DNA of 64,000 nucleotides from Lachnospiraceae bacterium. GTDB taxonomy: Bacteria; Bacillota; Clostridia; Lachnospirales; Lachnospiraceae. Of this stretch, positions 18,725-58,016 are shown piece by piece. The notes under the pieces were generated by a model that ran no database searches, was not told the origin of the DNA, and was given only the letters and a program-made list of their open reading frames with translations. The DNA lies in contig CAVBSU010000001.1 of the NCBI GenBank assembly GCA_963598245.1, forward strand, positions 6,854 to 70,853, in the 5' to 3' direction. Position 1 is the first letter of the stretch. Every line of letters starts with the position of its first letter. Position numbers and translations under genes: made by a program.

Positions 18725-18843
18725 CTCTGCCTAAGCTGTCTGTTTTATATAGACGCTTAAGCTATTCGATTGTAAATCCAATCCTTCCCGGAAAGGACTA
18801 TTTGATATTACTATGCATGCTTTAATATGTAAAGCTGTTTTTT

Positions 18844-20905: not shown

Positions 20906-20944
20906 GTTCTTTTACCTCCTGTAATATTTCCGCCCTAAAACTGC

Positions 20945-21075
20945 AGAAAAGAAAACTCCATGCCAAAAGACATGGAGGTAAAGTCATAGTACTTTTATTC
21001 CTCGGCAGGCGTCTTTCATCCTTACGCTCGCAGTGCAATGCACATAGAGCACCTGCTGTCTTCGGCAGTTAAAGC
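20945..21075 (-). promoter_or_regulatory. ribosomal protein L10 leader with attenuator hairpin
   Basis: Structured ~130-nt 5' UTR ending in CUCCAUG-N8-CAUGGAG plus UUUUCUUUU (20977-20945). The position and architecture fit the Firmicute L10 leader. Not verified by a covariance model. Confidence 0.55.
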
Positions 21076-21081
21076 TTAGCT

Positions 21082-21110
21082 ATATTAACACACAATTTCG
21101 GGTGTGTCAA
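21082..21110 (-). promoter_or_regulatory. rplJL promoter
   Basis: On the minus strand: TTGACA (21110-21105), 17-nt spacer, TAATAT (21087-21082). Confidence 0.6.
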
Positions 21111-28627: not shown

Positions 28628-28698
28628 AGCGGGTGATGGGAATCGAACCCACGTGTACAGCTTGGAAGGCTGTCATTCTACCATTGAACTACACCCGC
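28628..28698 (-). tRNA. tRNA-Gly (anticodon UCC)
   Basis: Cloverleaf checked by hand: GCGGGTG acceptor, anticodon stem-loop ACAGC-CTTCCAA-GCTGT, T-arm GTGGG-TTCGATT-CCCAT. No encoded CCA. Confidence 0.9.
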
Positions 28699-30268: not shown

Positions 30269-30706
30269 TTAGGCTTTCAGCCTTTTACAAAGGTATTCTA
30301 TGGCCATTTTGTATCCCTCAAAGCCGTACCCTGCGTAGGTTTTCTCACATGCCATTCCGGCATAGGAAATCTGTCTGAAGTCCTCTCTTTCATTCACCTT
30401 TGAAAGATGTACCTCCACAGCCGGGATTGAAACAGCCTTCAGGGCATCAAGAATCGCCACACTCGTATGTGTATAGGCAGCCGGATTTATAACTATACCG
30501 TCTATTTTGTCAAAATATGCCTGCTGGATGCGATCTACTATCGCTCCCTCATGATTATTCTGATATATCTCGAACTGTACTCCCTGTTTTTCGCATACAC
30601 TCTCCACATATTCGGTGAGTGTATTATAGCTCAGATTTCCGTATATTTCAGGCTCCCTTATTCCCAACATGTTGAGATTCGGTCCGTTTATAATGAGAAG
30701 CTTCAT
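30269..30706 (-). CDS. aroQ: type II 3-dehydroquinate dehydratase
   Basis: MKLLIINGPNLNMLGIREPEIYG...NPAAYTHTSVA. Confidence 0.92.
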   Translation of the reverse strand: MKLLIINGPNLNMLGIREPEIYGNLSYNTLTEYVESVCEKQGVQFEIYQNNHEGAIVDRIQQAYFDKIDGIVINPAAYTHTSVAILDALKAVSIPAVEVHLSKVNEREDFRQISYAGMACEKTYAGYGFEGYKMAIEYLCKRLKA

Positions 30707-30744
30707 GATGTTCTCTCCTTAATGTTCTGCTGTGCGGAGTTTAC

Positions 30745-31965
30745 TCACTCACAGAGTCTTATGATTTCCTCTGCGGCATCTTTTACTGACCTGTCATTGA
30801 CCACGACATCATCCGCAAAGGCCTCATACTTATCCTTTCGCTCTTCATAAAGCTTTTCAAGCGGATTTGCCTGTGAAACAGGTCGCCCATCCGTCGGAAG
30901 CAGGTTTATATCCCGCTTTATCCAAACAATATGGCCATTCTGGTGGATCAGCGGATAATTTTCAGGTCGTGTAACACAGCCGCCGCCTGTGGATATCACA
31001 CAGCCTGATAGCTTTCCGACCTCGGAGAGCACTTCTGTTTCTATCGCTCTGAAGCCTGCCTCGCCCTGTTCCCTGAATATAGTCGGGATATCGGTTCCTG
31101 CCTTTTTTACTATTTCTTCATCCGCTTCTATCAGTCGCCTTCCTGTTATTTCCGCGATTTTCTTTCCGATAGAGCTTTTTCCGGCTCCCGGCATGCCGAT
31201 AATAACAATGTTTTGCATTTCGGCACTAAGCTTTTTATATATATATCCTATAACACTGTCATCTATTTTTGTATTCATAAAAAATTCAGCACTTTGCTTG
31301 GCCTGTGCTACCAGCATATAAAATCCGTCCGCATGCCTGATATTAAGCTTTTCCGCCTGAAGCATAAGAGCTGTTCTGGCCGGATTATATACTACATCCA
31401 GCACACCCTCACACTCAGGAAAATCTCTCAGATCCACAGCTGCCTCTCCGTTATTCGGATACATTCCCATAGGAGTCGTATTTACAATAATCCCTGCATC
31501 CTTATGACACTCCAGATTGTCATAATTATTCTCACCGCCGCGGCTTATTACTATCACCTCAGAGGCTCCCAGATCCCTCAATGCGTGACATATGGTATTT
31601 GAAGCCCCTCCGCTCCCGAGCACCAGAGCCTTCCTGGCATTGACATCAATGCCGCTTGCCTTTACAAGCTCGCAAAAGCCGTAATAATCCGTGTTGTAGC
31701 CGTGCCAGCCGTCCTCCATTTTTACAAGAGTGTTAACTGCTCCCATTCTTTTAGCCACATCTGAAAGCCAGACACAGGAATCCATGACTCTTTTTTTATA
31801 AGGCATGGTAACATTCATTCCCGAAAGGTCAGTGGTGCTCAGGAATTTCTCAACATCTTCCTTTGCAACTTCATAACGCCTGTAATCATAATCGGCAAGC
31901 AGGTTGTGTATCTGCGGTGAATAGCTGTGTTCCAGCTTTTCACCTAAAACACCGTATTTTTTCAT
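30745..31965 (-). CDS. aroE/aroK: fused shikimate dehydrogenase / shikimate kinase
   Basis: The N-terminal ~245 aa are AroE-like (NVTMPYK, GSGGAS). The C-terminal part has Walker A GMPGAGKSS and a shikimate kinase fold. Confidence 0.9.
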   Translation of the reverse strand: MKKYGVLGEKLEHSYSPQIHNLLADYDYRRYEVAKEDVEKFLSTTDLSGMNVTMPYKKRVMDSCVWLSDVAKRMGAVNTLVKMEDGWHGYNTDYYGFCELVKASGIDVNARKALVLGSGGASNTICHALRDLGASEVIVISRGGENNYDNLECHKDAGIIVNTTPMGMYPNNGEAAVDLRDFPECEGVLDVVYNPARTALMLQAEKLNIRHADGFYMLVAQAKQSAEFFMNTKIDDSVIGYIYKKLSAEMQNIVIIGMPGAGKSSIGKKIAEITGRRLIEADEEIVKKAGTDIPTIFREQGEAGFRAIETEVLSEVGKLSGCVISTGGGCVTRPENYPLIHQNGHIVWIKRDINLLPTDGRPVSQANPLEKLYEERKDKYEAFADDVVVNDRSVKDAAEEIIRLCE

Positions 31966-31993
31966 GGTTGAACCCTTTCCTGTAATTTAAAAA

Positions 31994-33145
31994 TCAGATA
32001 ACCTCATTGTAGCTTCCGAGATACTGAAATTCCTCGCAGCAGTCATTGACATCACAGATAATCTGTACGAATTCCTCTGAATAAATAGATGTGTCCAAAT
32101 CAAAATAAAACATAAACTCGAAATCTCTTTCCGGTATGGGACGGGATTCCAGCTTTTGAAGATTTATGCCCAACGCATAGAAGCGTGCCAACATCTTATA
32201 AAGCGCACCGGGTCTGTGTGAGAGCACCACCATGAGAGAGGTCTTGTCGGCTCCCGGATAAATTTCAGGCTTTTTGGATATACAGATAAATCGTGTATGA
32301 TTATTTCCGCAATCGGCGATGTTGGTTTCAAGCGATTTGAGTCCGTAAAGCTCAGCGCAGCGATAGGAGGAGATTGCCGCAATATCTTTTCTTTCCGAAT
32401 TTGCAACCATTTGCGCGGCCATCGCCGTATTTTCCACAGGTGTTATCTTTATGTCATTTCCCAGTGTCTGTATGAAATCCGCACACTGATTTAATGCCTG
32501 CTCGTGGGAAACTATTTCTCTTATGTCCTTTATATCCACTCCCGGCTTTGCCACAAGGCAGTGGTTTATCTTTATGCGTGTGCTTCTTACGATATAAAAA
32601 TGGTACTTGAGCATGAGGTCATAGACCTGCTTTACTGAGCCTGCCGTAGAATTTTCTATGGGGAGTATGCCATATTTGCAAAAGCCCTTGTCCACGGCAT
32701 TGAAAACGCCGTCAAAGCTGTTGAAGTATTGAATGTTCGGCATCGAAAAAAGCTTTTCACAGGCAATGTTGGAGTATGCTCCCTCGACTCCCTGGACCGC
32801 TACCGTAGCTGTCTTAGGGAACATCTTCGATGTCTGCTCTATGGCCGTCCTTATCTCCTCGAATTTATCTGCATTATTTCCTATTATCTTATTTTGATGA
32901 GCACGGCTGAGCTCAAATAAAAGAGAGTACAGCACATGGTAGTAGGGTCTTAAGTCTTCCCTTGCCCAGCCGGATATCTCTGCAAGCTTTTCTCTTTCTC
33001 TTCTTGAATCCAGTGTCGCAAGCCCGTGTTCTTTCTTATACTCTGCAATTTCAGCAGCTATATCCATGCGGTCTTCCACTGCTTTAACTATGAGTCTGTC
33101 GATTTCATCTATATCTCTGCGTAATTCCTCTATACTTCTTCCCAT
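31994..33145 (-). CDS. pheA: bifunctional chorismate mutase / prephenate dehydratase
   Basis: N-terminal CM type II helix (LRRDIDEIDRLIV), PDT domain (VAVQGVEGAYS) and a C-terminal ACT domain (HRPGALYKML). Confidence 0.9.
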   Translation of the reverse strand: MGRSIEELRRDIDEIDRLIVKAVEDRMDIAAEIAEYKKEHGLATLDSRREREKLAEISGWAREDLRPYYHVLYSLLFELSRAHQNKIIGNNADKFEEIRTAIEQTSKMFPKTATVAVQGVEGAYSNIACEKLFSMPNIQYFNSFDGVFNAVDKGFCKYGILPIENSTAGSVKQVYDLMLKYHFYIVRSTRIKINHCLVAKPGVDIKDIREIVSHEQALNQCADFIQTLGNDIKITPVENTAMAAQMVANSERKDIAAISSYRCAELYGLKSLETNIADCGNNHTRFICISKKPEIYPGADKTSLMVVLSHRPGALYKMLARFYALGINLQKLESRPIPERDFEFMFYFDLDTSIYSEEFVQIICDVNDCCEEFQYLGSYNEVI

Positions 33146-33205
33146 ATGTTTTTCCTGTCTGTATCTGTATCTGTCGTTCTGCGACCGGTTTTTTGATATT
33201 CACCT

Positions 33206-34219
33206 TTATTTTACAGCTGCTCTTGCCATCAAAAGCTCGTCATATACCGAAACAGCCGCAGCTGCTTCCACACAGGGTACTGCTCTTAAAACTATGCACG
33301 GGTCATGTCTGCCCCTTATGCTGAGCTTTACATTTTCAAGCGTTTTTACATTGACGCTGTCCTGCTCTTTAGCTATGGACGGAGTAGGCTTAAAGGCAGC
33401 TCTGAAAATTACAGGCATGGAGGATGTGATTCCTCCCAGTATCCCGCCATGATTGTTCGTTTTTGTGCGTACAGTGCCGCCCGTCACCTCGAAGGCATCG
33501 TTATTTTCGCTTCCTTTAAGCTCGGCACATCTGAAGCCGCAGCCAAACTCTATGCCCTTTACTGCCGGTATCCCAAATACAGCCTGCGAAATACGGCTCT
33601 CCATTCCGTCAAACATCGGCTCGCCCAAGCCTGCCGGTACGCCCTCTATAACACACTCAACTATGCCTCCCACCGAGTCACCCTCATCTCTCGCCCTATC
33701 TATAGCTTCAAACATCTTTTCATCGGTGGTTTCTCCGCCTATCATAACAGGCTTTGCGCTGACAGTTATCCCCTGCTCCTCAAGAATTTGCAGACATATG
33801 CCCCCTGCAATACAAAGCGGTGCCGTCAGTCTCCCGGAAAACTGTCCGCCTCCCGGAATATCTCTTCCGCTGCCGTATTTTACCATGGCCGCATAATCCG
33901 AATGCCCGGGTCTCGGCACTTCGGTAAGATAGCTGTAGTCTGAGGATTTGGTGTTGGTATTTTTTATTATCGCCGTAATCGGAGAGCCGCAGGTAAGCCC
34001 GTCAGGATTAAGCCCTGCAATAAATTCAACCTCATCTGCCTCGTTTCTCGGTGTAGAGTACCGATTTTTGCCCGGTCTTCTTCTGTCCATGAATTCCATC
34101 AGTTTTTCCTGGTCAATGCTTATTCCCGCCGGAATTCCCTCCATCGTCACACCTATTGCGGGTGCATGGGACTGACCCCATATCGTAAATTTGAAAATAC
34201 TGCCTAAAGTATTCGCCAT
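33206..34219 (-). CDS. aroC: chorismate synthase
   Basis: FKFTIWGQSHAPAIG...RPGHSDY...GRHDPC motifs. Confidence 0.92.
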   Translation of the reverse strand: MANTLGSIFKFTIWGQSHAPAIGVTMEGIPAGISIDQEKLMEFMDRRRPGKNRYSTPRNEADEVEFIAGLNPDGLTCGSPITAIIKNTNTKSSDYSYLTEVPRPGHSDYAAMVKYGSGRDIPGGGQFSGRLTAPLCIAGGICLQILEEQGITVSAKPVMIGGETTDEKMFEAIDRARDEGDSVGGIVECVIEGVPAGLGEPMFDGMESRISQAVFGIPAVKGIEFGCGFRCAELKGSENNDAFEVTGGTVRTKTNNHGGILGGITSSMPVIFRAAFKPTPSIAKEQDSVNVKTLENVKLSIRGRHDPCIVLRAVPCVEAAAAVSVYDELLMARAAVK

Positions 34220-34285
34220 GTGTGTCTTCGTGCCTTCCTGTGTATTTTCTTTGTACTTTTTTGTTTCTCCTGTCGTTTTTCTTTT

Positions 34286-35575
34286 TCAGCCTGAGACTGC
34301 GGCTTTTCCTCCGAGTTTTTCGAAATCCCTCCAGAAATCCGGATATGATTTTCTCACAGCCCCGGCATTTTCTATTTCCACACTGTCGCTGCATATCACG
34401 GATGCCACCGCCGCACTCATCGCTATGCGATGGTCGTTGAAGCTGTCCGTTTTTCCGCCTTTTAAATGTCCGTTTCCTTTTACCTTAAGTCCGTCTGCCG
34501 TTTCAGTACAATCTGCACCCAGAGCCTTAAGCATCGCCACAGTAGTCTTTATCCTGTCGCTTTCCTTTATCTTAAGCCTCTCTGCATGTATAAATGTCGT
34601 TTCTCCTTTTATCCCTGCTGCAAGCACCGATAATACCGGCACCAGATCAGGCACATCTCTGGCATCTATTATAGCACCGCCCGGATAAATATCCTCTATA
34701 AGCTTTCTTACTGCCCGATCTCCCTGTACCGAAAGCTCATTGAGACCCGTCACTTTAAGACTGCCGCCGCAAAGCTTTGACGCGCAAAGCCAAAATGCTG
34801 CATTGGACCAGTCTCCCTCAACTACCGTCTCGCCGGGTGAGTTATATTTAATACTTACAAAGGCAATATCCTCAGAGTCTGTGCTCCTGCATACAGTTTC
34901 CTCGCATGCTTTAATCCCTCTGTCTTCTATAAAAAGCCTGTCTTTCTCCCAGCACACCCTGACGCCGAAATTTTCCTGTACATCCATGGTCATGAGAATG
35001 TAGTTTTTGGACTCCGCTTTTCCTGTAAGTCTTAGCTCAGACCTTTCTTCCATGAGAGGCATTGCAAAAAGCAGTCCGCTTATGAACTGGGAGGAAACAT
35101 CCGCTGCAAGTGTAAAAATGCCGCCCTTAAGCCTTCCTCCTGTGCTTATGGTCTTGTCCTCGTTTCTTTTCAAGCTGCATCCGTGAGCTGTAAGTTCTTC
35201 CCATAATGGAGAAAGCGGTCTTTCCGAGAGTCTTCCGTGCATGACTATGGTGCAGCCTATGCCCAGTGCACAAACCACAGGAAGCAGAAAGCGAAGTGTT
35301 GAACCGCTTTCCCCACAGTCTATAACTGCCTTTTCCGGTATGAAAGCAGCCGGTATTACCGTGAATACACCTTGTTTTTCATCGTAGCTTATATCACAGC
35401 CCATGGCTCTCAGGCAGTTTGCTGTAGCATCTATGTCCTGCGAGCGCTCACGACATGTGATTTTCGTAGGTCTGTCCGCAAAAGCGGCACAAATAAGCAT
35501 TCTGTGTGCCTGTGACTTGGATGCTATTGCTCTTATACTCCCCTTAAGTTTTGCAGGTTCTATTGTTACCTTCAT
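34286..35575 (-). CDS. aroA: 3-phosphoshikimate 1-carboxyvinyltransferase (EPSP synthase)
   Basis: 429 aa with SKSQAHR, GESGSTLRFL and NDHRIAMS motifs. Confidence 0.95.
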   Translation of the reverse strand: MKVTIEPAKLKGSIRAIASKSQAHRMLICAAFADRPTKITCRERSQDIDATANCLRAMGCDISYDEKQGVFTVIPAAFIPEKAVIDCGESGSTLRFLLPVVCALGIGCTIVMHGRLSERPLSPLWEELTAHGCSLKRNEDKTISTGGRLKGGIFTLAADVSSQFISGLLFAMPLMEERSELRLTGKAESKNYILMTMDVQENFGVRVCWEKDRLFIEDRGIKACEETVCRSTDSEDIAFVSIKYNSPGETVVEGDWSNAAFWLCASKLCGGSLKVTGLNELSVQGDRAVRKLIEDIYPGGAIIDARDVPDLVPVLSVLAAGIKGETTFIHAERLKIKESDRIKTTVAMLKALGADCTETADGLKVKGNGHLKGGKTDSFNDHRIAMSAAVASVICSDSVEIENAGAVRKSYPDFWRDFEKLGGKAAVSG

Positions 35576-35594
35576 ATGTGTTTCCTGTGGTTTT

Positions 35595-36662
35595 TCAGCC
35601 TATGCCCTTTTCTATAAAGCTCTTAAGCTCCGTAAGCTTAAGCTTTCTTATAATGCATCTTCCTATCTGCTCGGGGACGATTATCGAAATGCTGCTGCCT
35701 TTTCGCTTCTTATCCTTAAGCATCATATCATACAGCTCCTCTGCATCATACCCGCAGACTGACGGAAGTCCGAATTTTTCTGTTACAGCCTTTATTTCAG
35801 CCGCACAAGTCTCACTGCATATGCCCTCGCAGGCTGCCGCTCTGGAAAAGGCTGCCATCCCTGTCGCGACTGCCCTTCCGTGTGAAAGCCTGAAATCACT
35901 TTTCATTTCAGCTGCATGAGCCAGCGTATGCCCGAAATTTAAAAGCTGCCTTTTTCCGTTATCAAATTCATCTTCAACTACCACATCTCTCTTAAGCTCT
36001 ATGCAGCGCAGAATTACATACTCTCTGTCAAAGCAAAGTCCTCTTTCCATAAGATGCTCAAACAGCTTTTCATCAAACAGAACGCCATACTTTATAACTT
36101 CTGCACAGCCATCTCTGAATATTTCCTCCGGAAGAGTATCCAGAACATCCAAATCGCATATGACAAGCCCGGGCTGATGAAATGCTCCCGCAAGATTTTT
36201 TCCTGCCTTTAAATCTATGCCTGTCTTTCCTCCGACAGATGAATCCACACAGGCTAAAAGTGAGGTCGGTATCTGAACAAAATCTATTTTTCTCAAGAAG
36301 GTCGCCGCCGCAAAGCCTGCCATATCTCCAACCACTCCGCCTCCCAGGGCGATTATAAAGTCACTCCTTGTAACGGCATTTTCTGCAAGATATTCCAGAA
36401 TTTTTATATAATTTTCCGTGGACTTTGATGCCTCTCCGTGAGGAATAACATATTTTAAAACTCTGTATCCCCCGTCTGATACGCTTTTTTCAACTGCTTC
36501 TGCGTAAAGCTTCTCCACACTGTCATCAGTTATTATTACCGCAGTTTCAGCTCCTTTATTAAGCCCGGCATATTCCTTTATGAGCGCTCCGCATTTCTTT
36601 AAGAGCTCGCGGCCTGCCAGCACCTTATACGGTTTTTTCGTGTCAATGTCTATTATCTTCAC
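35595..36662 (-). CDS. aroB: 3-dehydroquinate synthase
   Basis: 355 aa with GGGVVGDMAGFAAATFLR and NFGHTLAHA motifs. Confidence 0.92.
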   Translation of the reverse strand: MKIIDIDTKKPYKVLAGRELLKKCGALIKEYAGLNKGAETAVIITDDSVEKLYAEAVEKSVSDGGYRVLKYVIPHGEASKSTENYIKILEYLAENAVTRSDFIIALGGGVVGDMAGFAAATFLRKIDFVQIPTSLLACVDSSVGGKTGIDLKAGKNLAGAFHQPGLVICDLDVLDTLPEEIFRDGCAEVIKYGVLFDEKLFEHLMERGLCFDREYVILRCIELKRDVVVEDEFDNGKRQLLNFGHTLAHAAEMKSDFRLSHGRAVATGMAAFSRAAACEGICSETCAAEIKAVTEKFGLPSVCGYDAEELYDMMLKDKKRKGSSISIIVPEQIGRCIIRKLKLTELKSFIEKGIG

Positions 36663-36768
36663 GGTTTTTCCTTTCTTACACTCATCTGCATTCCGGCTGC
36701 CTGCCCCGGCTCAAAGCCTGTGCACTTTTACTTAATTATCTTTCGCCGTACTTCAACCCGGCTTAGCC

Positions 36769-37599
36769 TCAGCCGTCCAGTGCAATCTTCTTCTGACTTC
36801 CTTCATCAAGTATGCGCACAAGTCTTTCCTCATCATCACACTCGACAGCTTCCTTATACTCCTGCAAAAAACCGATAAGCCAGTCCAGCTCCTTTATGAC
36901 ATTGCCCTTATTAGCCATAAAAAGCTCGGCCCACATTCTGGGATTAAGCCTTGCCACACGGGTAAGATCCTTATAGCTGCCTGCCGAAAAGCCCTTGTGA
37001 CTTCCTGCTGTGGGACTCTTTATGTAAGCATTGGATACTATATGCGCCATCTGGGATGTGAACCCGATCATTCGGTCATGCTCCGCAGCCGTTGTGACAG
37101 AAAGCTTTCCGAAACCTGCCGGCTCCAGAAGCTTCTTTATCCTGTCAAGAAACTGCATATCATCATACACCGGCGGTACCAGCACCATGGGCGCACCCTT
37201 GAACATGTTTGCCCTCGAATGCTTGAAACCGGAATACTGGGTTCCTGCCATGGGATGTCCTCCCACATAGGTAAATCCATACTCTCCGGCAAGCTTGAAA
37301 CCCAACTTGCAGATCTCCTCTTTCACTCCCAGACAGTCTATCACAACGGTATGCTTATCTATATAGGGAGCATTTTCCTCAAACCATTTCGCCGCCGCAT
37401 GTATATAGGTGGTGATGAGCAGAAGATCACACTCCTTCATGTTATCATGGGTAAGCTCAGCGTCCACTGCTCCTTCAAGCATGGTAAAGCCCAATATGGT
37501 TCTGTCCGTATCAAAACCCAGAACCTTGTGTCCTGACTCTTTATATGCCTTTGTAAAGGATCCTCCGATAAGACCCAGCCCTACAACTCCGACTGTCAT
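36769..37599 (-). CDS. tyrA: prephenate dehydrogenase
   Basis: Rossmann N-terminus VGVVGLGLIGGS and GGHPMAG motif. Confidence 0.88.
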   Translation of the reverse strand: MTVGVVGLGLIGGSFTKAYKESGHKVLGFDTDRTILGFTMLEGAVDAELTHDNMKECDLLLITTYIHAAAKWFEENAPYIDKHTVVIDCLGVKEEICKLGFKLAGEYGFTYVGGHPMAGTQYSGFKHSRANMFKGAPMVLVPPVYDDMQFLDRIKKLLEPAGFGKLSVTTAAEHDRMIGFTSQMAHIVSNAYIKSPTAGSHKGFSAGSYKDLTRVARLNPRMWAELFMANKGNVIKELDWLIGFLQEYKEAVECDDEERLVRILDEGSQKKIALDG

Positions 37600-38601
37600 T
37601 TATTTTATAACCTCGTGAATCTTTCTTATCTTGTCTGCCATGCGGCTGAATTCATCAGGATCGACAGACGAGGCTCCGTCGCTTAATGCATTCATGGGAT
37701 CGTTATGAACCTCTATCATAAGTCCGTCCGCTCCGCAGGCAGCAGCTGCCATAGCCATAGGCTCTACATATCTTGAGTAGCCTGTGCTGCGGCTTGGATC
37801 TACTATTACCGGAAGGTGCGAATACTCGTGAAGCACGGGCACCGCCGAAAGATCAAGCGTATTTCTGGTATAGGTCTCAAAGGTTCTTATGCCTCTCTCA
37901 CAAAGAATAACCTTTTCATTGCCCCCTGCCATAACATGCTCTGCACTCATGAGCAGCTCTTTCAGGGTATTTGCAAGGCCCCTCTTAATAAGCACAGGCT
38001 TTCTTAAGCGTCCCAGCTCCTTTAATAACTCCGTATTCTGCATATTTCTTGCGCCGACCTGAATAATATCCACCTCTTCAAAGCAGGCGATATCATTTAT
38101 GCTCATAATCTCTGAAATTATAGGAAGCCCCGTGGCCTTTTTCGCCTCTATAAGCATGTCAATGCCTTCTGCCTTGAGCCCCTGAAATTCATAGGGCGAG
38201 GAACTTTGTTTAAAGGCACTTCCCCTCAGTATGCCTGCTCCGGCAGCCTTTACCTTCTTTGCTATTTCAATTATCTGCCCGCTGTTTTCCACCGAGCTTG
38301 GTCCTGCGATCATAACGCAGCTTCCGTTTCCTATCTTTACACCGTTTACATCAATTACCGTGTTTTCCGGATGAAATTTGCGGTTGGCTTTTTTAAACGG
38401 CTCTGAAATTATTTTTACCGAGCTTACTATACTTAAGCTTTGCAGAAGGTCAACATCTATGCTGCTTGTATTTCCCACAAGCCCCAGCACCGTATACTCC
38501 TTTCCTTCTGAGATATGCACCTCAAGATTCTGACCTTTCAGCCAGTCGATAAGATGACTTCTCTGTTCAATGGTTGTATTTGGCTTAAGTACGGCAATCA
38601 T
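37600..38601 (-). CDS. aroF: 3-deoxy-7-phosphoheptulonate (DAHP) synthase with N-terminal ferredoxin-like regulatory domain
   Basis: Type I-beta DAHPS core (GPSSVE, KRG..., DPSRSTG) preceded by a ~70-aa ACT/FL-like domain. Start at MIAVLK (38601) behind GGGGAGGG. Confidence 0.9.
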   Translation of the reverse strand: MIAVLKPNTTIEQRSHLIDWLKGQNLEVHISEGKEYTVLGLVGNTSSIDVDLLQSLSIVSSVKIISEPFKKANRKFHPENTVIDVNGVKIGNGSCVMIAGPSSVENSGQIIEIAKKVKAAGAGILRGSAFKQSSSPYEFQGLKAEGIDMLIEAKKATGLPIISEIMSINDIACFEEVDIIQVGARNMQNTELLKELGRLRKPVLIKRGLANTLKELLMSAEHVMAGGNEKVILCERGIRTFETYTRNTLDLSAVPVLHEYSHLPVIVDPSRSTGYSRYVEPMAMAAAACGADGLMIEVHNDPMNALSDGASSVDPDEFSRMADKIRKIHEVIK

Positions 38602-38620
38602 ATTTTCCCTCCCCGATATC

Positions 38621-38654
38621 ATAAATAAAAAGCTGCACCTGTTTCAAGTGCAGC
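38621..38654 (-). terminator. intrinsic terminator (attenuator) in the aro leader
   Basis: On the minus strand, GCUGCACUUG-AAA-CAGGUGCAGC (10 bp, one G-U) followed by UUUUUAUUU. It lies 20 nt upstream of the aroF RBS. Confidence 0.7.
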
Positions 38655-38707
38655 CCAAAGTCCTTTAATATGTCCTTTTTATCTCAATATGTGCACTAAA
38701 ACAGCTA

Positions 38708-38776
38708 TTACTTTTCCTCCATGTAAAAGTAATAGTAGCTAAAGCTATATGCAAAGCCTGAATTTAAGTGTATCAT
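38708..38776 (-). CDS. candidate Phe/Tyr-rich leader peptide (22 aa)
   Basis: Hand translation gives MIHLNSGFAYSFSYYYFYMEEK*. The codon run TAC TAT TAC TTT TAC lies in the 5' arm of an 11-bp hairpin. The SD is weak (AAGGA 14 nt upstream). Confidence 0.5.
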   Translation of the reverse strand: MIHLNSGFAYSFSYYYFYMEEK

Positions 38777-38813
38777 AAGATAAAATGCGTTCCTTTTTTA
38801 ATGATTTAACGCG

Positions 38814-38842
38814 ATGATATCCCTAAGTCTGCCAAATGTCAA
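38814..38842 (-). promoter_or_regulatory. aro operon sigma-A promoter
   Basis: On the minus strand: TTGACA (38842-38837), 17-nt spacer, TATCAT (38819-38814). Confidence 0.6.
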
Positions 38843-38992
38843 GTAGAATCTGTGTTTCATCTGTTTCTTTCAAGTGTGGTTCAAGACTTTGCAGCTGCTT
38901 TATCGTCTTTTCTGCACTTGCTTTTTTTTGATTAAAGCCTTATAAATGGGCATATAAATTTCGAGATGTAGTTTTGCGGAGAACAAATATTC

Positions 38993-40474
38993 ATGATCAG
39001 CTTTTTGATTTGTTTAATTATACTTATAGCCGGTTACTTTATATATGGAAAAATCGTAAGTAACTCCTTTAACCCCGATGACAGAGAAACTCCGGCGATT
39101 GCAATAGATGACGGCATCGACTATGTCGTTCTGCCGAGATGGAAGCTGTTTCTTGTTCAGTTTCTCAACATCACCGGCCTGGGTCCTGTTTACGGAGCTC
39201 TTCAGGGTGCTTTATGGGGTCCTGTCGTTTTTCTGTGGATTACCTTCGGCACTATTTTTGCAGGCGGTGTACATGACTATTTCTCGGGAATGCTCTCGGA
39301 AAGAAATAACGGAGCTTCCATTTCCGAGGTTACCGGAAAATATCTGGGCACTCCCATGAAAAATATGATGAGAATTTTTTCTGTTATTCTCCTTATTGTG
39401 ATCGGTGCAGTCTTTGCAGTAAGTCCGGCAGGGCTTATCGTTACCCTCTTTGAGGGAAAGGGCTTTGACGGAATTTCTACCTCCGCTGCCATATGGCTTA
39501 CAATCATACTCATTTATTATTTTATTGCGACCTTTCTTTCCATTGACAAAATTATAGGTAAAATATATCCGATATTTGGCATTTGCCTTTTTGCTATGGC
39601 TGTCGGTGTTTTCTTCGGTGTTCTTTTTAAACCTGAATATGAAATACCCGAGATATGGTCCAACTTTGCAAACATGCATCCTGAGCATACCCCTATCTGG
39701 AGCTTCATGTTTATAACAGTTGCCTGCGGTGCTATTTCAGGCTTCCATTCTACCCAGTCTCCCATTATGGCCCGTTGCCTTTCTTCAGAAAAGCAGGGGC
39801 AGTTCGTATTTTACGGTGCCATGGTTTTAGAGGGTGTAATAGCCCTTATCTGGGCTGCTGCAGGATGTGCCGTCTATGAAACAGCCGGAGGACTGAACAC
39901 CGGACTTTTGAAAATACTTAATCTTGGTCAGTCGGCAGCTATTTATGATATCACATTGAGAATTATGGGACCTGTAGGTGTTGTTCTTGCCATGATAGGT
40001 GTTGTTGTGTGCCCTGTAACCTCGGGTGATACGGCCTTTCGTGCGGCAAGGCTTGCTTTATCCGACTGGCTCGGCATTGAACAGGAATCCTATGCCGGAA
40101 GACTTAAGCTTTGTATTCCCGTGCTTGCGGCAGGTGCTCTTATAGGTTTCCTCAATGTCTTTAACATAATCAGCTATCAGGCTGTCTGGAGATATTTTTC
40201 ATGGGCCAATCAGACGCTTGCCACGCTTGTTCTCTGGACAAGCTCGATGTACCTTGCAATACACAAGAAGAATTTCTGGATCTGCGTCATACCCGCCACA
40301 TTTATGAGTGCCGTTACGGTAACATATTTTTGTATGGCAGAGGAATGTCTGGGAATGATGCCTTTCTTCAGAGATAACACAGCCTTTGCCTATCCGACAG
40401 GCATAATCGCTGCGCTTTTATTCCTGGCTCTTTTTATGAAAAAGTCCCGAAAATATCGCCGTAACACATATTGA
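38993..40474 (+). CDS. cstA: carbon starvation protein CstA family transporter
   Basis: 493 aa, polytopic. The N-terminal block FLNITGLGPVYGALQGALWGPVVFLWI...GGVHDY is typical of CstA. Confidence 0.88.
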   Translation: MISFLICLIILIAGYFIYGKIVSNSFNPDDRETPAIAIDDGIDYVVLPRWKLFLVQFLNITGLGPVYGALQGALWGPVVFLWITFGTIFAGGVHDYFSGMLSERNNGASISEVTGKYLGTPMKNMMRIFSVILLIVIGAVFAVSPAGLIVTLFEGKGFDGISTSAAIWLTIILIYYFIATFLSIDKIIGKIYPIFGICLFAMAVGVFFGVLFKPEYEIPEIWSNFANMHPEHTPIWSFMFITVACGAISGFHSTQSPIMARCLSSEKQGQFVFYGAMVLEGVIALIWAAAGCAVYETAGGLNTGLLKILNLGQSAAIYDITLRIMGPVGVVLAMIGVVVCPVTSGDTAFRAARLALSDWLGIEQESYAGRLKLCIPVLAAGALIGFLNVFNIISYQAVWRYFSWANQTLATLVLWTSSMYLAIHKKNFWICVIPATFMSAVTVTYFCMAEECLGMMPFFRDNTAFAYPTGIIAALLFLALFMKKSRKYRRNTY

Positions 40475-46378: not shown

Positions 46379-48340
46379 TCAGCTTTCTTCCTGTGATATG
46401 GTTTTCTCCATTTCAGCCGCCTTCGCCTGCTCCTCTATGACATTTTCCTTGGAATTAAGTATGCTCATGAATTCCTCACCCGTGATGGTTTCCTTTTCAT
46501 AGAGATACTTTACTATTTCGTGCAGCTTCATGATATTGTCTTCCAATATCTTGTAGGCTTTCTCATGCTGTCTTCTTACAAGGCCTATTACGGCGTCATC
46601 AATATTCTTCTGGGTTTCCTCAGAGCATGCTATGGACATGTCTCCGCCCAGATAAGCATTGTTCTTTGACTGAAGAGCTACCATATCGAAGCTTTCACTC
46701 ATGCCGTACTGCGTGTACATGGCTCTTGCAATCTTGGTGGCCTGTTCTATATCGTTAGAGGCCCCCGTAGTGATGCTTTTAAATATAAGCTCTTCCGCAG
46801 CGCGCCCTCCTGTAAGAGTAGCAATTTTATTTTCCAGCTCCTCCTTACTCATGAGATAATGATTTCCTTCTTCATCTACCTGCATGGTATATCCGAGTGC
46901 GCCTGAGGTGCGGGGGATAATCGTAATCTTATGTACCGGTGCTGAATTATTCTGCATCGCCGCAACCATTGCGTGTCCCACCTCGTGATAGGCTACAATA
47001 AGCTTTTCTTTATTGGTAAGCACCTTGTTTTTCTTTTTATAACCGGCCATTACGACCTCGATACTCTCTTCAAGATCCTGCTGATTTACTCTCTCTCGTC
47101 CCGCTTTTACAGCACGAAGCGCTGCCTCATTTATCATGTTTGCAAGCTCTGCTCCCGAGGCACCGGGGCAGGCCTTTGCTATACTGTCATAGTTGATATT
47201 GCCCGCCATTTTTACATTCTTCGCATGAACCTTGAGAATGTCTACTCTTCCCTGCATATCCGGAAGCTCTACCGGCACGCGTCTGTCGAAACGACCCGGC
47301 CTTAAAAGAGCCGGATCCAGAGCGTCAGGCTGGTTTGTAGCAGCAAGAATAATGATTCCCTTTGAACCGTCAAAGCCATCCATCTCCGTAAGAAGCTGAT
47401 TGAGAGTCTGCTCTCTTTCGTCATTTCCGCCTAAGCCGCTGCCGTTTCGCTTCTTTCCTATGGCATCTATCTCGTCTATGAAAATGATACATGGGGCTTT
47501 TTCCTGCGCCTGCTTAAAGAGGTCTCTTACCTTTGCGGCACCCATGCCCACATAAAGCTCTACAAATTCAGATCCCGAGATGCTGAAAAACGGTACGTCG
47601 GCCTCGCCTGCCACAGCCTTTGCCAAAAGAGTTTTTCCTGTTCCCGGAGGACCGACAAGCAACGCTCCCTTGGGTATTTTTGCACCGATGTCGCTGTATT
47701 TCTTCGGATTATGAAGAAAATCTACTATTTCTGCAAGCAGTTCCTTAGCTTCCTCTTCTCCGGCTACATCCTTAAACTTTACTCCGGTCTTTTCCTTATC
47801 ATATATCTTCGCATTCGATTTTCCGAAGCCTCCCATAAAACCGCCCATGCCGCCCATGGATGCCATCTTTTTGGAAAGCCTTGAACCGAACCAGATAAGG
47901 ATTATAAACGGAAGCAGGTTGTATAATATCAGCCAGACCGGGGATATCGTAGTCGGTATTTCCTGCGTAAATGTAGCTCCCGCCCTGTACATGCGGTCTA
48001 CTTCCCCAAAGTAGTTATTTATGCGTCCTGTTTTGTATATCTCACCCTCAGCTCCTGATTTTAATGTATAGGTTATCGAGTTATCGTCGAGCTGGACCTG
48101 ATCGACATTGGACTTATCCAGTTCTGTTAAAAATTCCGAGTAGGATGTTGTCTGTATGCTCTTCTCTCTCAGATAAGGCACAAGCATGGCATTTATAAGA
48201 AACAGCACTGCAAGGGCCACGATGTAGTAAACAAGCATGGGCTTATTTGGCTTCGGAAACATGTTATTTGATCCGCTGCCGTCATACTTGCTTTTATTTG
48301 GGTCATTCTGATAGTCAAAAATATTGCCTAGGTTTGCCAT
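46379..48340 (-). CDS. ftsH: ATP-dependent zinc metalloprotease FtsH
   Basis: 653 aa with Walker [12 protein letters not shown] and the zinc motif HEVGHA. Confidence 0.95.
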
Positions 48341-48579
48341 ATTTCTCCTGTTTTTATTTTTTCAATACTTTTTTATGTTTAGCAGTCTTCCTTTCGGACT
48401 GCTAATCGTAGTATAGATGTGTTCCTGGCTTTGTGCAAGCAATCGGGCATAACTTTCACACATTGTTTGCAAAGCCCGGGCGGAACTGTTTTTCATTATG
48501 CGCCATATACAAAATTTCTTTTGCAATCAAGCCCTGCATCGGTATTCGTGACCCTTTGATATCAGTATCATGCTATAAT

Positions 48580-49515: not shown

Positions 49516-49646
49516 CCGTAATATTTACAAATCGAACATCTGCGCCATATGATAAAATACACTGATAAACAAGATGATTTTGTGATATCATACTCTAAAA
49601 GTGTTGACGAATGATTGTAAGCACCAAGTGCTTGCACTTGTGTGCA

Positions 49647-49904
49647 CAATCATTTGGCAACCTGCCGTGTATGAGTAAGTAGCGCGATAGCGCGGATTAC
49701 GAATACAGGGCAAGGATTGCGGGAGCACGCCAGTGCGTAGCAATCCGCACTTTTAGAAAGCCAAGCAATCATTTGGCAACCTGCCGTGTATGAGTAAGTA
49801 GCGCGATAGCGCGGATTACGAATACAGGGCAAGGATTGCGGGAGCACGCCAGTGCGTAGCAATCCGCACTTTTAGAAAGCCAAGCAATCATTTGGCAACC
49901 TGCC
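49647..49904 (+). repeat. 119-bp perfect tandem direct repeat, 2 full copies plus 20-nt third copy
   Basis: Copies at 49647-49765 and 49766-49884 are identical by eye. 49885-49904 repeats the first 20 nt, and similarity then decays. Confidence 0.95.
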
Positions 49905-53138: not shown

Positions 53139-53387
53139 ATGATTTTCCTTATTATATCTTGCGAGTCAGTCTGTAGATTTCACTGCAAGACCGTTCTTTT
53201 TGTTCATTTTTTATTATTTATAACGAATTTTGAACATGATACACTTGTATTCAATATTTGTCAATGTTTTTCAGTTTCCTAAGTGTTATAAATTATTTGC
53301 TAATAATATGTTTTTGGATATAATGAATGATGTCCGGACAAACCAGACATTGCCCGCAGTATTATTCATTCGGAAAGGAATAATTTT

Positions 53388-57849: not shown

Positions 57850-57923
57850 GCCTCAATAGCTCAGTTGGTTAGAGCATCTGACTGTTAATCAGGGGGTCCC
57901 AGGTTCAAGTCCTGGTTGGGGCG
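57850..57923 (+). tRNA. tRNA-Asn (anticodon GUU)
   Basis: Hand-folded cloverleaf: acceptor GCCTCAA/TTGGGGC, D-arm GCTC-AGTTGGTT-AGAGC, anticodon loop CTGTTAA, T-arm CCAGG-TTCAAGT-CCTGG. Confidence 0.9.
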
Positions 57924-57944
57924 CTTTTTCATACTCAAAATACG

Positions 57945-58016
57945 GCGCCATGGTCAAGCGGTTAAGACACCACCCTTTCACGGTGGTAACACGAGTTCGA
58001 TTCTCGTTGGCGTCAT
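57945..58016 (+). tRNA. tRNA-Glu (anticodon UUC)
   Basis: Acceptor GGCGCCA/TGGCGTC, anticodon stem-loop CCACC-CTTTCAC-GGTGG, T-arm ACGAG-TTCGATT-CTCGT. Confidence 0.9.

What the first reader, a model, noticed from the sequence alone, without database searches (positions are those of the whole stretch)
38602..38842. Phe/Tyr-rich leader peptide with antiterminator/terminator logic upstream of the aromatic supraoperon
Seen: a 22-codon ORF (38776-38708, minus strand) lies between a TTGACA-17-TATCAT promoter (38842-38814, minus strand) and the aroF start (38601). It reads MIHLNSGFAYSFSYYYFYMEEK. Eight of the eleven residues at positions 8-18 are Phe or Tyr, ending in the run TAC TAT TAC TTT TAC. 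That run forms the 5' arm of a perfect 11-bp hairpin (38735-38725 pairs with 38715-38705). The 3' arm of the hairpin contains the stop codon. Immediately downstream, CUGUUUUAGUGCAC (38704-38691) can pair with the 5' arm, the loop and the first three bases of the 3' arm of the terminator stem (about 13 bp, one bulge, two G-U). The terminator is GCUGCACUUG-AAA-CAGGUGCAGC plus UUUUUAUUU (38654-38621). A ribosome reaching the stop would cover the antiterminator segment. A ribosome stalled on the Tyr/Phe codons would leave it free. Established knowledge: this is the logic of ribosome-mediated attenuation, as in the enterobacterial pheL and trpL leaders. In Firmicutes, aromatic amino-acid genes are typically under T-box or protein-mediated control, and I see no T-box consensus (no GGUGGUACCGCG-like block) here. 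Inference: charging of tRNA-Phe and tRNA-Tyr controls read-through into an 8 to 10 gene operon that makes exactly those two amino acids.
Basis: partly seen in the sequence, partly recalled or inferred. Interest (0 to 1): 0.8.

Follow-up and report, generated by a model that had tools for sequence, protein, structure and literature searches.

The report
Phe/Tyr leader-peptide attenuator before aroF
A 22-codon mini-gene packed with phenylalanine and tyrosine codons, followed by mutually exclusive RNA hairpins, most likely lets this gut Lachnospiraceae bacterium switch on its aromatic amino-acid operon only when charged tRNA-Phe/Tyr runs low; the feature is real and widely conserved, but this kind of switch has already been predicted in Firmicutes.

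Summary
The promoter, the 22-codon F/Y-rich uORF, the 11-bp hairpin, the antiterminator pairing and the intrinsic terminator all lie where stated, upstream of aroF-tyrA-aroB-aroA-aroC-pheA-aroE/K-aroQ.

Comparative evidence is strong:
- An F/Y-rich uORF (at least 7 of 11 residues) lies upstream of aroF in 50/80 related species, against 1/80 on the reverse strand and 0/80 in shuffles.
- All 55 credible loci have a terminator, and it covaries.
- 42/55 have a register-specific antiterminator strand that starts at or inside the end of the uORF.
- In 38/55 the F/Y and Ala codons pair with that strand, giving the classical 1:2 / 2:3 / 3:4 topology.
- A covariance model built without the window's clade recovers the window leader as the top hit (29 bits, E about 0.002).
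- No T-box or other Rfam family matches.

The novelty premise is not. Stav et al. 2019 described F/Y "aromatic amino acid attenuators" (uORF-12 and uORF-13) upstream of aroF/tyrA in Firmicutes, Brewer et al. 2021 described one in Acholeplasma, and aroR is known in Corynebacterium.

Verdict: a new member, possibly a sister RNA design, of a known kind. Interest is modest.

The parts
38814..38842 (-). Sigma-70-type promoter: TTGACA (38842-38837), 17-nt spacer, TATCAT (38819-38814)
   Evidence: 11/12 match. Both hexamers are conserved in L002 and the -10 hexamer in L001. The transcription start is inferred near 38807.
38790..38796 (-). Shine-Dalgarno-like AAAGGAA for the uORF, about 13 nt before the AUG
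   Evidence: duplex -5.6 kcal/mol with the anti-SD. The spacing is long here. 85% of family members have an SD of -5 kcal/mol or better, mostly 5-9 nt from an AUG.
38708..38776 (-). Leader peptide uORF, 22 codons plus UAA (MIHLNSGFAYSFSYYYFYMEEK); an in-frame UAG follows at 38707-38705
   Evidence: Homologous F/Y uORFs occur in 50/80 species, against 1/80 on the reverse complement and 0/80 in shuffles. The coding signature is shown.
38723..38755 (-). Regulatory codon run, F8 to Y18 (8 of 11 codons are Phe or Tyr): the proposed ribosome stall site
   Evidence: Family codon usage in 49 distinct runs is UUU 143, UAC 122, UAU 85, UUC 18, with only 2 UGG.
38726..38754 (-). Region 1: the 5' strand of the anti-antiterminator (UUGCAUAUAGCUUUAGCUACUAUUACUUU); its core is 38735-38726
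   Evidence: In the window the duplex with region 2 is -14.9 kcal/mol (z = -2.5). Across the family the median is -16.1 kcal/mol, and 38/55 loci have z < -2.
38691..38713 (-). Region 2: AAGUAAUAG (pairs with the Tyr/Phe codons and contains the stop codons) plus the antiterminator strand CUGUUUUAGUGCA(C) at 38704-38691
   Evidence: It aligns to the family's conserved GUAAnAGUGAUUUGUGCUGC block in the covariance-model alignment.
38639..38656 (-). Region 3: terminator 5' arm GGGCUGCACUUG, the AAA loop and CAG. Positions 38652-38639 pair with region 2 to form the antiterminator
   Evidence: 13 bp; MFE of transcripts ending at 38639 or 38636. (window z = -3.4). (80% of cells paired in register, against 33-40% when slid).
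38621..38656 (-). Intrinsic terminator: 12-bp stem 38656-38645 with 38641-38630, then the U tract 38629-38621
   Evidence: -17 kcal/mol. Family covariation: 90% paired, 10/11 pairs with changes on both sides, score 0.565 against 0.258 shuffled.
37600..38601 (-). aroF (DAHP synthase family), first gene of the controlled operon; its SD GGGGAGGG is at 38614-38607
   Evidence: NF006421, 441 bits; T. maritima DAHPS 1RZM, E = 7e-94.
30269..37599 (-). The rest of the operon: tyrA, aroB, aroA, aroC, pheA (chorismate mutase/prephenate dehydratase), aroE-aroK fusion, aroQ
   Evidence: NCBIfam assignments for each ORF listed.

Best explanation
This is a classical ribosome-mediated transcription attenuator of the trpL/pheL type. 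It senses charged tRNA-Phe and tRNA-Tyr and controls read-through from the 38842 promoter into the aroF-tyrA-aroB-aroA-aroC-pheA-aroE/K-aroQ operon.

The leader RNA has four segments:
- Region 1: the Phe/Tyr (and preceding) codons of a 22-codon uORF.
- Region 2: the stop-codon region plus the antiterminator strand, 38713-38691.
- Region 3: the terminator 5' arm and loop.
- Region 4: the terminator 3' arm plus the U tract.

When Phe and Tyr are plentiful, the ribosome runs through the F/Y codons to the UAA. There it covers region 2, or after release regions 1 and 2 pair. Regions 3:4 then form and RNA polymerase terminates near 38625.

When Phe-tRNA or Tyr-tRNA is scarce, the ribosome stalls inside 38755-38723. 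It holds region 1 and ends about 13-15 nt downstream of its A site. Region 2 is then free to pair with region 3 as it emerges (13 bp), the terminator cannot form, and the operon is transcribed.

What is shown: the sequence elements, the alternative pairings, and their conservation, covariation and geometry across species.
What is inferred: that the uORF is translated, that termination occurs at the hairpin, and that tRNA charging is the signal.
For: (1) All elements are present at the stated coordinates.
(2) The antiterminator is the MFE of the nascent transcript until the terminator 3' arm appears, after which the terminator wins (-17 kcal/mol). That is the kinetic signature of an attenuator.
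(3) A short ORF with at least 7/11 F/Y/W residues occurs upstream of aroF in 50/80 species, against 1/80 on the reverse complement and 0/80 in shuffles.
(4) Coding signature: codon position 1 is U in 82% of cases, third positions are U or C, and synonymous UAU/UAC and UUU/UUC are mixed. 85% of loci have an SD before an AUG 4-10 codons ahead of the run.
(5) 55/55 loci have a terminator between the uORF and aroF, with strong covariation.
(6) Antiterminator: median z = -3.0 against shuffles, 42/55 with z < -2, and register-specific.
(7) Anti-antiterminator: 38/55 with z < -2, covering a median of 16 nt of the antiterminator strand. This explains the conserved F-A-A codons.
(8) Geometry: the antiterminator strand starts a median of 19 nt after the last aromatic codon. 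In 98% of loci it starts 12 nt or less after the stop codon, or lies inside the ORF.
(9) A motif scan of 185,579 species genomes gave 27 real hits, all immediately upstream of aroF.
(10) Covariance model R1, trained without the window clade, finds the window leader full-length as the top hit (29 bits, E about 0.002). It finds L001-L003 at 46-52 bits.
(11) dS between the window and L001-L003 is about 2, so the conserved leader blocks reflect selection.
(12) The operon makes exactly Phe and Tyr.
Against: There is no experimental evidence of any kind: no Term-seq, Ribo-seq or reporters. The window's SD-AUG spacing (about 13 nt) is long, so translation efficiency is uncertain. At equilibrium every ribosome-masked fold still shows the terminator, so the switch must be kinetic. 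Antiterminator covariation is modest and mostly wobble-type (score 0.258 against 0.218). In the window the 1:2 pairing over the antiterminator strand itself is interrupted by internal loops, so it may block the antiterminator less well than in relatives. The leader has no Trp codons although the operon also feeds Trp synthesis. In the one validated F-Y-F leader, C. glutamicum aroR, only Phe limitation had an effect (PMC11802643), so dual Phe/Tyr sensing is not guaranteed.
Confidence: 0.85

Rival explanations
1. The conserved RNA core (antiterminator strand, consensus GUGAUUUGUGCUGCC, plus terminator loop GAAUCAC) is the binding site of a protein or small ligand that decides between terminator and antiterminator. 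The uORF would then be auxiliary or incidental.
For: The primary sequence of the antiterminator strand and terminator loop is unusually conserved across Clostridia and Synergistota for a purely structural switch. Antiterminator covariation is weak.
Against: The window's own antiterminator (CUGUUUUAGUGCA) and loop (AAA) differ from that consensus yet keep the pairing. That argues for structure rather than a sequence-specific ligand site. The uORF has a clear coding signature, an SD, and a fixed geometric relation to the switch. The sequence conservation is explained by one strand having to satisfy three partners: the codons of region 1, the terminator arm, and in some lineages its own translation. 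No Rfam riboswitch or protein-binding leader matches.
Confidence: 0.06
2. It is a T-box or another known riboswitch/leader family that the first reader missed.
For: T-boxes commonly control aromatic amino-acid genes in Firmicutes (general knowledge, e.g. Vitreschak et al. 2008, recalled from memory).
Against: There is no Rfam hit in 38500-39000 even at E up to 10, and no T-box in the window at gathering score. There are none in 20 related loci. In 18 more distant loci there is a single T-box, and it is not upstream of aroF.
Confidence: 0.01
3. The short ORF encodes a functional hydrophobic micropeptide, or the transcript ending at the terminator is a stand-alone sRNA, and the position next to aroF has no regulatory meaning.
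For: Attenuator-derived leader peptides and sRNAs can act in trans, as with peTrpL/rnTrpL in Sinorhizobium (titles listed).
Against: Outside the F/Y run and the RNA-constrained segments the peptide sequence is not conserved, and its length varies from 16 to more than 35 residues. All 27 genome-wide motif hits that are real sit 34-150 nt upstream of aroF on the same strand. A trans role would add to cis attenuation, not replace it.
Confidence: 0.03
4. It is a chance co-occurrence of an A/U-rich ORF and hairpins in an AT-rich intergenic region.
For: UUU, UAU and UAC codons are favoured by low GC content (the leader is 33% GC). Two other ORFs in the window reach 7/11 aromatic residues.
Against: The controls: 1/80 on the reverse complement and 0/80 in dinucleotide-preserving shuffles, against 50/80. 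Fold z = -3.4. The covariance-model hit has E about 0.002 and is the best in 128 kb searched. The element is conserved although dS is about 2.
Confidence: 0.01

Closest known systems
[quoted passage not shown] 2019, BMC Microbiol 19:66, PMC6429828, Fig. 6b, Table S1 and supplementary text; type locus Clostridium novyi NT NC_008593.1/2309418-2308872)
   Same: A bioinformatically predicted short ORF with an F-Y-F-type aromatic consensus, followed by a terminator stem. About half of its 336 examples lie upstream of aroF, and tyrA is the next commonest neighbour. It is found in Firmicutes including Clostridiales and in metagenomes, and was proposed to work like the trp attenuator. The window element has the same gene context, the same logic and the same taxonomic class.
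   Different: I could not obtain their alignment or the C. novyi sequence, and the motif is not in Rfam 15. The leader type I found in Clostridium sensu stricto (…QFYSFYFSWGFYFSAG…; L143, L181, L227, L247-L252) fits their 'F-Y-F in the loop of P1' description, and my model of the window's family does not detect it. The window family may therefore be a sister RNA design. Their text describes no antiterminator or anti-antiterminator, and it does not list Synergistetes.
[quoted passage not shown]
   Same: It encodes an F/Y-rich leader peptide, occurs in Firmicutes (Bacilli, Clostridia, Erysipelotrichia), and some examples lie upstream of shikimate-pathway genes.
   Different: It is mostly upstream of amino-acid transporters, has a more complex structure, and encodes the peptide just before P1. 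All real genome-wide hits of the window family's core are upstream of aroF.
E. coli pheL-pheA and trpL-trpEDCBA attenuators
   Same: They share the four-segment topology (1:2, 2:3, 3:4), regulatory codons in region 1, a stop codon next to region 2, and an intrinsic terminator before the first gene (established knowledge; summarised in PMC11802643).
   Different: There is no sequence homology, and the Rfam Phe/Trp leader models do not hit. The window leader mixes Tyr and Phe codons (5 Tyr and 3 Phe) instead of using Phe alone. It controls the whole common pathway plus both the Phe and Tyr branches. In some family members the uORF is translated straight through the antiterminator strand.
aroR leader upstream of aroF in Corynebacterium glutamicum (Neshat et al. 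2014, as reviewed in PMC11802643)
   Same: A leader peptide with Phe-Tyr-Phe upstream of the aroF operon, shown by transcriptomics to act as a ribosome-mediated attenuator.
   Different: It is actinobacterial. Stav et al. state that its peptide and RNA structure are distinct from the Firmicutes motifs. It responds to Phe limitation and not to Tyr, and has far fewer aromatic codons.
uORFC-13-1 motif upstream of aroF in Acholeplasma (Brewer et al. 2021, RNA Biol 18:2417, PMC8632094)
   Same: A uORF with Phe codons and an adjacent terminator, found exclusively upstream of aroF and proposed to be an attenuator.
   Different: It is reported only from Acholeplasma and environmental sequences, with 24 representatives. 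The Acholeplasmatales locus I could examine (Mariniplasma, L188, peptide …GYYYYYTS) is not detected by the window-family model.

Membership tests
Classical ribosome-mediated transcription attenuator (trpL/pheL type) | Short translatable uORF with a start codon and ribosome-binding site in the 5' leader | tested here: met
   The uORF runs from AUG 38776 to UAA 38708. The SD-like AAAGGAA lies 13 nt upstream, which is long. 85% of family members have a good SD. Translation itself was not tested.
Classical ribosome-mediated transcription attenuator (trpL/pheL type) | Clustered codons for the amino acid(s) made by the controlled operon | tested here: met
   Eight of 11 codons are Phe or Tyr, and the operon encodes tyrA and pheA plus the common pathway. 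50/80 orthologous loci show this, against 1/80 and 0/80 in the controls.
Classical ribosome-mediated transcription attenuator (trpL/pheL type) | Intrinsic terminator between the uORF and the first structural gene | tested here: met
   38656-38630 plus a U tract, -17 kcal/mol. Present in 55/55 family loci and covarying.
Classical ribosome-mediated transcription attenuator (trpL/pheL type) | Antiterminator (2:3) mutually exclusive with the terminator | tested here: met
   38704-38692 pairs with 38652-38639 (13 bp) and is the MFE of the nascent RNA. Family: 42/55 loci with z < -2, and 80% paired in register against 33-40% when slid.
Classical ribosome-mediated transcription attenuator (trpL/pheL type) | Anti-antiterminator (1:2) in which the regulatory codons pair with region 2 | tested here: met
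   Window: 38754-38726 with 38713-38691, -14.9 kcal/mol, z = -2.5. Family: 38/55 loci with z < -2 and a median 16-nt overlap with the antiterminator strand. In the window the part covering the antiterminator strand is interrupted by loops.
Classical ribosome-mediated transcription attenuator (trpL/pheL type) | Geometry: region 2 is free when the ribosome stalls at the regulatory codons and occluded when it reaches the stop codon | tested here: met
   In the window the antiterminator strand starts 20 nt after the last aromatic codon and 5-6 nt after the first base of the stop codon. Family: median 19 nt, and 98% start 12 nt or less after the stop codon or inside the ORF.
Classical ribosome-mediated transcription attenuator (trpL/pheL type) | Read-through rises on starvation for the cognate amino acid or on reduced tRNA charging, and depends on uORF translation | not testable with these tools
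   This needs Term-seq, reporter assays or Ribo-seq.
[quoted passage not shown] 2019) | Located upstream of aroF/tyrA or other shikimate genes in Firmicutes | tested here: met
   aroF-tyrA…; closest relatives are Lachnospiraceae.
[quoted passage not shown] 2019) | Short ORF with a conserved F-Y-F-type consensus followed by a terminator stem | tested here: met
   The peptide …YYYFY… is followed by the terminator. The family consensus is …FAAxYYYFYFF….
[quoted passage not shown] 2019) | F-Y-F codons lie in the loop of stem P1; match to the authors' covariance model or alignment | tested here: inconclusive
   The authors' alignment is not held and the motif is not in Rfam 15. In the window family the outer UGCAGC:GCUGCA pairs do enclose the aromatic run. 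However, the Clostridium sensu stricto leaders, which fit the description better, are not detected by my family model.
T-box leader (RF00230) | Match to the T-box covariance model (specifier loop, T-box sequence, antiterminator bulge) | tested here: not met
   There is no hit in the window at gathering score, and none at E up to 10 in 38500-39000.
Rfam amino-acid leader families (Phe, Trp, His, Leu, Thr leaders; leu/phe leader) | Match to any of these covariance models | tested here: not met
   None appears among the hits at E up to 10 in 38500-39000 or at gathering score in 20 related loci.
Clostridia/Synergistota aroF leader family defined here (model R1) | Significant full-length match to a covariance model built from 36 members, excluding the window and its 3 closest relatives | tested here: met
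   Window 38621-38768 (minus strand), 29 bits, E about 0.002, model positions 1-151/151, and the top hit on both strands of the 64 kb. L001-L003 score 46-52 bits. E-values are rough because calibration was shortened.

The most novel reading that the evidence does not exclude
The window element belongs to an uncatalogued attenuator RNA family that is distinct from the published uORF-12, uORF-13, aroR and uORFC-13-1 motifs. This family has moved together with aroF between Clostridia, Synergistota and a few other phyla. Its nearly invariant antiterminator strand (GUGAUUUGUGCUGCC) and terminator loop (GAAUCAC) carry a second function beyond base pairing, such as a programmed RNA polymerase pause or a factor-binding site. 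In some lineages the strand is itself translated, so that the ribosome unwinds the antiterminator directly.
Probability: 0.12. Interest if true: 0.55.

Novelty: new member of a known kind. Interest (0 to 1): 0.3.

Why it matters
It shows that a gut Lachnospiraceae species, and dozens of other Clostridia and Synergistota, most likely regulate the entire Phe/Tyr pathway by the textbook enterobacterial mechanism rather than by T-boxes. That adds to evidence that leader-peptide attenuation is common outside Proteobacteria.

Practically, the analysis gives:
- a precise four-segment model with coordinates, ready for Term-seq or reporter tests;
- a covariance model and about 80 member loci that could seed an Rfam family;
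- a natural Phe/Tyr-responsive part for engineering anaerobes.

It does not overturn anything. The class was already predicted by Stav et al. 2019, and aroR was validated in Corynebacterium.

Tried and rejected
- T-box, riboswitch or any other known leader: rejected by Rfam searches at gathering score and at E up to 10.
- Equilibrium folding with ribosome footprints masked: uninformative, because the terminator always wins. Truncated nascent transcripts replaced it.
- RNAalifold on the MAFFT alignment: it recovered only the terminator. The 1:2 and 2:3 helices had to be shown by per-locus duplex calculations with shuffles and by projecting a reference structure.
- Retrieving the published motif alignments: the Brewer 2021 supplement holds no sequences, and the Stav 2019 supplement holds text and tables only.
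- Fetching the C. novyi type locus: not possible with the capped genome scans. Two surrogate scans reached other Clostridium sensu stricto species instead.
- Exact-pattern scanning for the family core: it captures only the canonical subfamily. 27 hits are real, and 19 are consistent with the ~17 expected by chance.
- The local hairpin 38703-38694:38689-38680 as an alternative anti-antiterminator: too weak (-4.6 kcal/mol) and not pursued.
- Micropeptide and chance explanations: rejected (see the rival explanations).
Full report
**1. The observation**

- A near-consensus promoter: TTGACA 38842-38837, 17 nt, TATCAT 38819-38814 (11/12).
- A 22-codon ORF from AUG 38776 to UAA 38710-38708, encoding MIHLNSGFAYSFSYYYFYMEEK. 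Eight of residues 8-18 are Phe or Tyr. An in-frame UAG follows the UAA.
- A 10-11-bp perfect hairpin between the Tyr/Phe codons (38735-38725) and the stop-codon region (38715-38705), at -10 kcal/mol.
- A 12-bp GC-rich hairpin at 38656-38630 followed by UUUUAUUUA, at -17 kcal/mol.
- The aroF start at 38601, behind GGGGAGGG.

The whole leader folds better than all 200 dinucleotide shuffles (z = -3.4). It is the only short ORF in the 64-kb window with at least 8/11 aromatic residues.

The downstream genes are aroF, tyrA, aroB, aroA, aroC, pheA (chorismate mutase/prephenate dehydratase), an aroE-aroK fusion and aroQ. The leader therefore precedes an operon that makes chorismate, Phe and Tyr.

**2. 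The alternative structures in the window**

With the full leader present, the terminator is always in the minimum-energy fold, whatever ribosome footprint is masked. That is normal for attenuators, where the decision is kinetic.

CUGUUUUA+GUGCA (38704-38692) pairs with UGCAC+UGAAACAG (38652-38639): 13 bp, one bulge, one G-U. This is the MFE (-14.9 to -16.9 kcal/mol) as soon as 38639 is transcribed. It is displaced only when the complete terminator 3' arm is available.

A ribosome with UAA in its A site would cover roughly the first 7-10 nt of that strand.

**3. Comparative evidence**

AroF homologues were fetched with flanks from one genome per species. The closest are Lachnospiraceae MAGs at 85-89% identity. 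The rest, at 59-70%, are Lachnospiraceae, Oscillospiraceae, Christensenellales and other Clostridia, Synergistaceae/Pyramidobacter, and a few MAGs labelled Treponema.

*The uORF.* A short ORF with at least 7 of 11 F/Y/W residues lies within 500 nt upstream of aroF in 50 of 80 loci. The figure is 1 of 80 on the reverse complement and 0 of 80 in dinucleotide-preserving shuffles.

*Coding signature.* In 49 distinct runs the codons are UUU 143, UAC 122, UAU 85 and UUC 18. Codon position 1 is U in 82% of cases. 85% of loci have a GGAG-like SD before an AUG 4-10 codons ahead of the run.

*Terminator.* All 55 credible loci have a strong hairpin plus U tract between the uORF and aroF. On a 43-sequence alignment, 90% of terminator cells are paired and 10 of 11 pairs show changes on both sides. 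The covariation score is 0.565, against 0.258 for shuffles and 0.04-0.21 for slid registers.

**4. Antiterminator and anti-antiterminator**

For each locus I computed the best duplex between the region downstream of the aromatic run and the terminator 5' arm plus loop. The median z against shuffles is -3.0, and 42 of 55 loci have z < -2.

The pairing strand has a recurring consensus, A(A/G)GUGAUUUGUGCUGCC. It is complementary to GGCUGYRCAGAAUCAC in the terminator, which explains the oddly conserved GAAUCAC terminator loops. Projected onto the alignment, this pairing is 80% formed in register and 33-40% when slid. Variation is mostly wobble-type, so covariation is modest.

The window's version differs in sequence but keeps the pairing.

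The strand starts a median of 3 nt before the stop codon. In several lineages the uORF is translated through it, which explains recurrent peptide tails such as SDLCC, VILCC and VICA.

The coding region itself, namely the aromatic codons plus a conserved Phe-Ala-Ala (UUGCAGC) just before them, pairs with the segment 5' of the antiterminator strand and with the strand itself. The median is -16.1 kcal/mol, 38 of 55 loci have z < -2, and the median overlap is 16 nt.

Geometry fits the model in 42 well-supported loci. The antiterminator strand begins a median of 19 nt after the last aromatic codon, so it is free when the ribosome stalls. In 98% of loci it begins 12 nt or less after the stop codon, or inside the ORF, so it is occluded when the ribosome finishes.

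**5. Family membership and specificity**

A covariance model was built from 36 leaders, excluding the window and its three close relatives. It finds the window leader end to end at 38621-38768 (minus strand) as the best hit in the window, at 29 bits and E about 0.002. It finds the untrained L001-L003 at 46-52 bits.

Synonymous divergence between the window and L001-L003 aroF is saturated (dS about 2). The shared leader blocks are therefore maintained by selection.

A degenerate pattern for the switch core, scanned over 185,579 species genomes, gave 46 hits against about 17 expected by chance. All 27 hits in Clostridia or Synergistota lie 34-150 nt upstream of aroF, which is usually followed by tyrA. 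The other 19 have neither a uORF nor aroF. The element is aroF-specific.

**6. What it is not**

No Rfam 15 family matches the leader at E up to 10. That includes T-box and the enterobacterial Phe, Trp, His, Leu and Thr leaders. None matches at gathering score in the window or in 20 related loci.

In 18 more distant Firmicutes/Mycoplasmatota aroF loci only one T-box was found, and it is not upstream of aroF.

**7. What is already known**

Stav et al. 2019 (PMC6429828; Fig. 6b legend, Table S1 and supplementary text) named two "aromatic amino acid attenuators" discovered in Clostridium novyi.
- uORF-12 has 1258 examples, mostly upstream of amino-acid transporters.
- uORF-13 has 336 examples: 43% in Firmicutes (Bacillales, Clostridiales, Thermoanaerobacterales, Negativicutes) and the rest metagenomic. 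About half lie upstream of aroF, and tyrA is the next commonest neighbour. It has a short ORF with an F-Y-F consensus and a terminator, and was proposed to act like the trp attenuator.

Stav et al. state that both differ from the actinobacterial aroR leader (Neshat et al. 2014). aroR carries F-Y-F and responds to Phe but not Tyr limitation (PMC11802643).

Brewer et al. 2021 (PMC8632094) added uORFC-13-1 upstream of aroF in Acholeplasma.

The kind of element is therefore published, although only as a computational candidate in Firmicutes and not in Rfam.

**8. Relation to those motifs**

I could not obtain the published alignments or the C. novyi locus.

A scan for AT-rich DAHP synthase genes and a follow-up pattern scan found a different leader design in Clostridium sensu stricto and neighbours: C. 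cavendishii, C. tarantellae, Sarcina, Caproiciproducens and Cellulosilyticaceae. Its peptide reads …QFYSFYFSWGFYFSAG…. It also sits directly upstream of aroF with its own terminator.

Further designs occur in Brachyspira, Mariniplasma and a Thermotogota MAG.

None of these is detected by the window-family model. The Clostridium-type leader fits "F-Y-F in the loop of P1" and is the likeliest equivalent of uORF-13. The window's family may be a sister design, but this is unproven.

**9. Verdict**

The mechanism is supported by strong comparative and thermodynamic evidence, with confidence about 0.85, but it is untested experimentally.

The novelty claim is deflated. This is a new member, perhaps a new RNA sub-family, of a known kind.

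This analysis adds four things beyond the literature: the explicit 1:2 / 2:3 / 3:4 model with coordinates; the conserved antiterminator strand and its frequent overlap with the uORF; the extension to Synergistota; and the aroF-exclusive distribution.

**10. Side observation**

The AroF of the window and of L001-L003 carries substitutions at positions that are at least 95% conserved in the other relatives. These align to T. maritima DAHP synthase Cys102 (to Ser), Arg133 (to Ser) and His272 (to Arg). Glu298 and Asp309 are kept.

By my recollection of the 1RZM literature, Cys102, His272, Glu298 and Asp309 are the metal ligands, and Lys131 and Arg133 bind the PEP phosphate.

The gene is under strong purifying selection (dN/dS 0.03-0.05). 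This deserves its own follow-up.

Noticed in passing
window 37600-38601 (minus strand); also L001-L003 at 1501-2499: The AroF of the window and its three closest relatives has lost residues that are conserved in the other 76 relatives. GPC becomes GPS (T. maritima Cys102), KPRTSPY becomes KQS(S/G)SPY (Arg133), and DPSH becomes D(P/V)SR (His272). Glu298 and Asp309 are kept. From memory, Cys102 and His272 are two of the four metal ligands and Arg133 binds PEP. The gene is nevertheless under strong purifying selection (dN/dS 0.03-0.05). It could be a metal-independent or neofunctionalised DAHP synthase homologue heading the aro operon.
   Followed up: partly
window 38794-38813 (minus strand): The block CGCGTTAAATCATTAAAAAA lies immediately after the -10 hexamer. 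It is conserved as CGCTTTAAA(T/C)C(G/A)CTAAAGA(A/T) in L001-L003, even though synonymous sites are saturated. Its function is unknown. Possibilities are the 5' end of the transcript, an operator, or part of the ribosome-binding region.
   Followed up: no
L143, L181, L227, L247-L252: A second, unrelated-looking F/Y leader design (peptide …QFYSFYFSWGFYFSAG…, with its own terminator) lies upstream of aroF in Clostridium sensu stricto, Sarcina, Caproiciproducens and Cellulosilyticaceae. It is probably the published uORF-13 type. The window-family model does not detect it.
   Followed up: partly
L158/L197 (Brachyspira alvinipulli), L188 (Mariniplasma), L186 (Thermotogota MAG), L192 (Anaerolineales MAG), L220: More aromatic-run uORFs with terminators lie upstream of DAHP synthase genes in other phyla: YAYYFFYY in Brachyspira, GYYYYY in Mariniplasma and EYYYYYWF in Thermotogota. 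L192 (31.8 bits, about 2.3 kb upstream, with two tandem DAHPS genes) and L220 (22.9 bits) match the window-family model.
   Followed up: partly
L019, L023, L028, L037, L045, L051, L054 (upstream of aroF): In these loci aroF is preceded by the end of another ORF with the conserved tail …CEEFEYLGSY…, not by a leader. In L037 the family model gives a weak hit (22.8 bits, E 0.12) about 1 kb further upstream, at 303-465. The attenuator may therefore sit in front of an extra upstream gene.
   Followed up: no
L010-L012 ('Treponema sp.' MAGs), L020/L026/L034/L044/L046/L052/L062 (Synergistaceae/Pyramidobacter): The same leader family and a 61-68% identical AroF occur in Synergistota and in rumen MAGs labelled Treponema. 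That suggests horizontal transfer of the leader-aroF unit, or in the Treponema cases possibly mis-binning.
   Followed up: no
window 18615-18728 (-), 20940-21083 (-), 49596-49755 (+), 28628-28698 (-), 57850-58015 (+): Known RNA elements elsewhere in the window: an FMN riboswitch, the ribosomal protein L10 leader, a Clostridiales-1 sRNA and three tRNA genes.
   Followed up: no
window 48268-48416 (+) and 53102-53176 (+): Two other short ORFs reach 7/11 aromatic residues. They were not examined further, and the family model gives no hit there. They are probably chance or out-of-frame readings of coding sequence.
   Followed up: no
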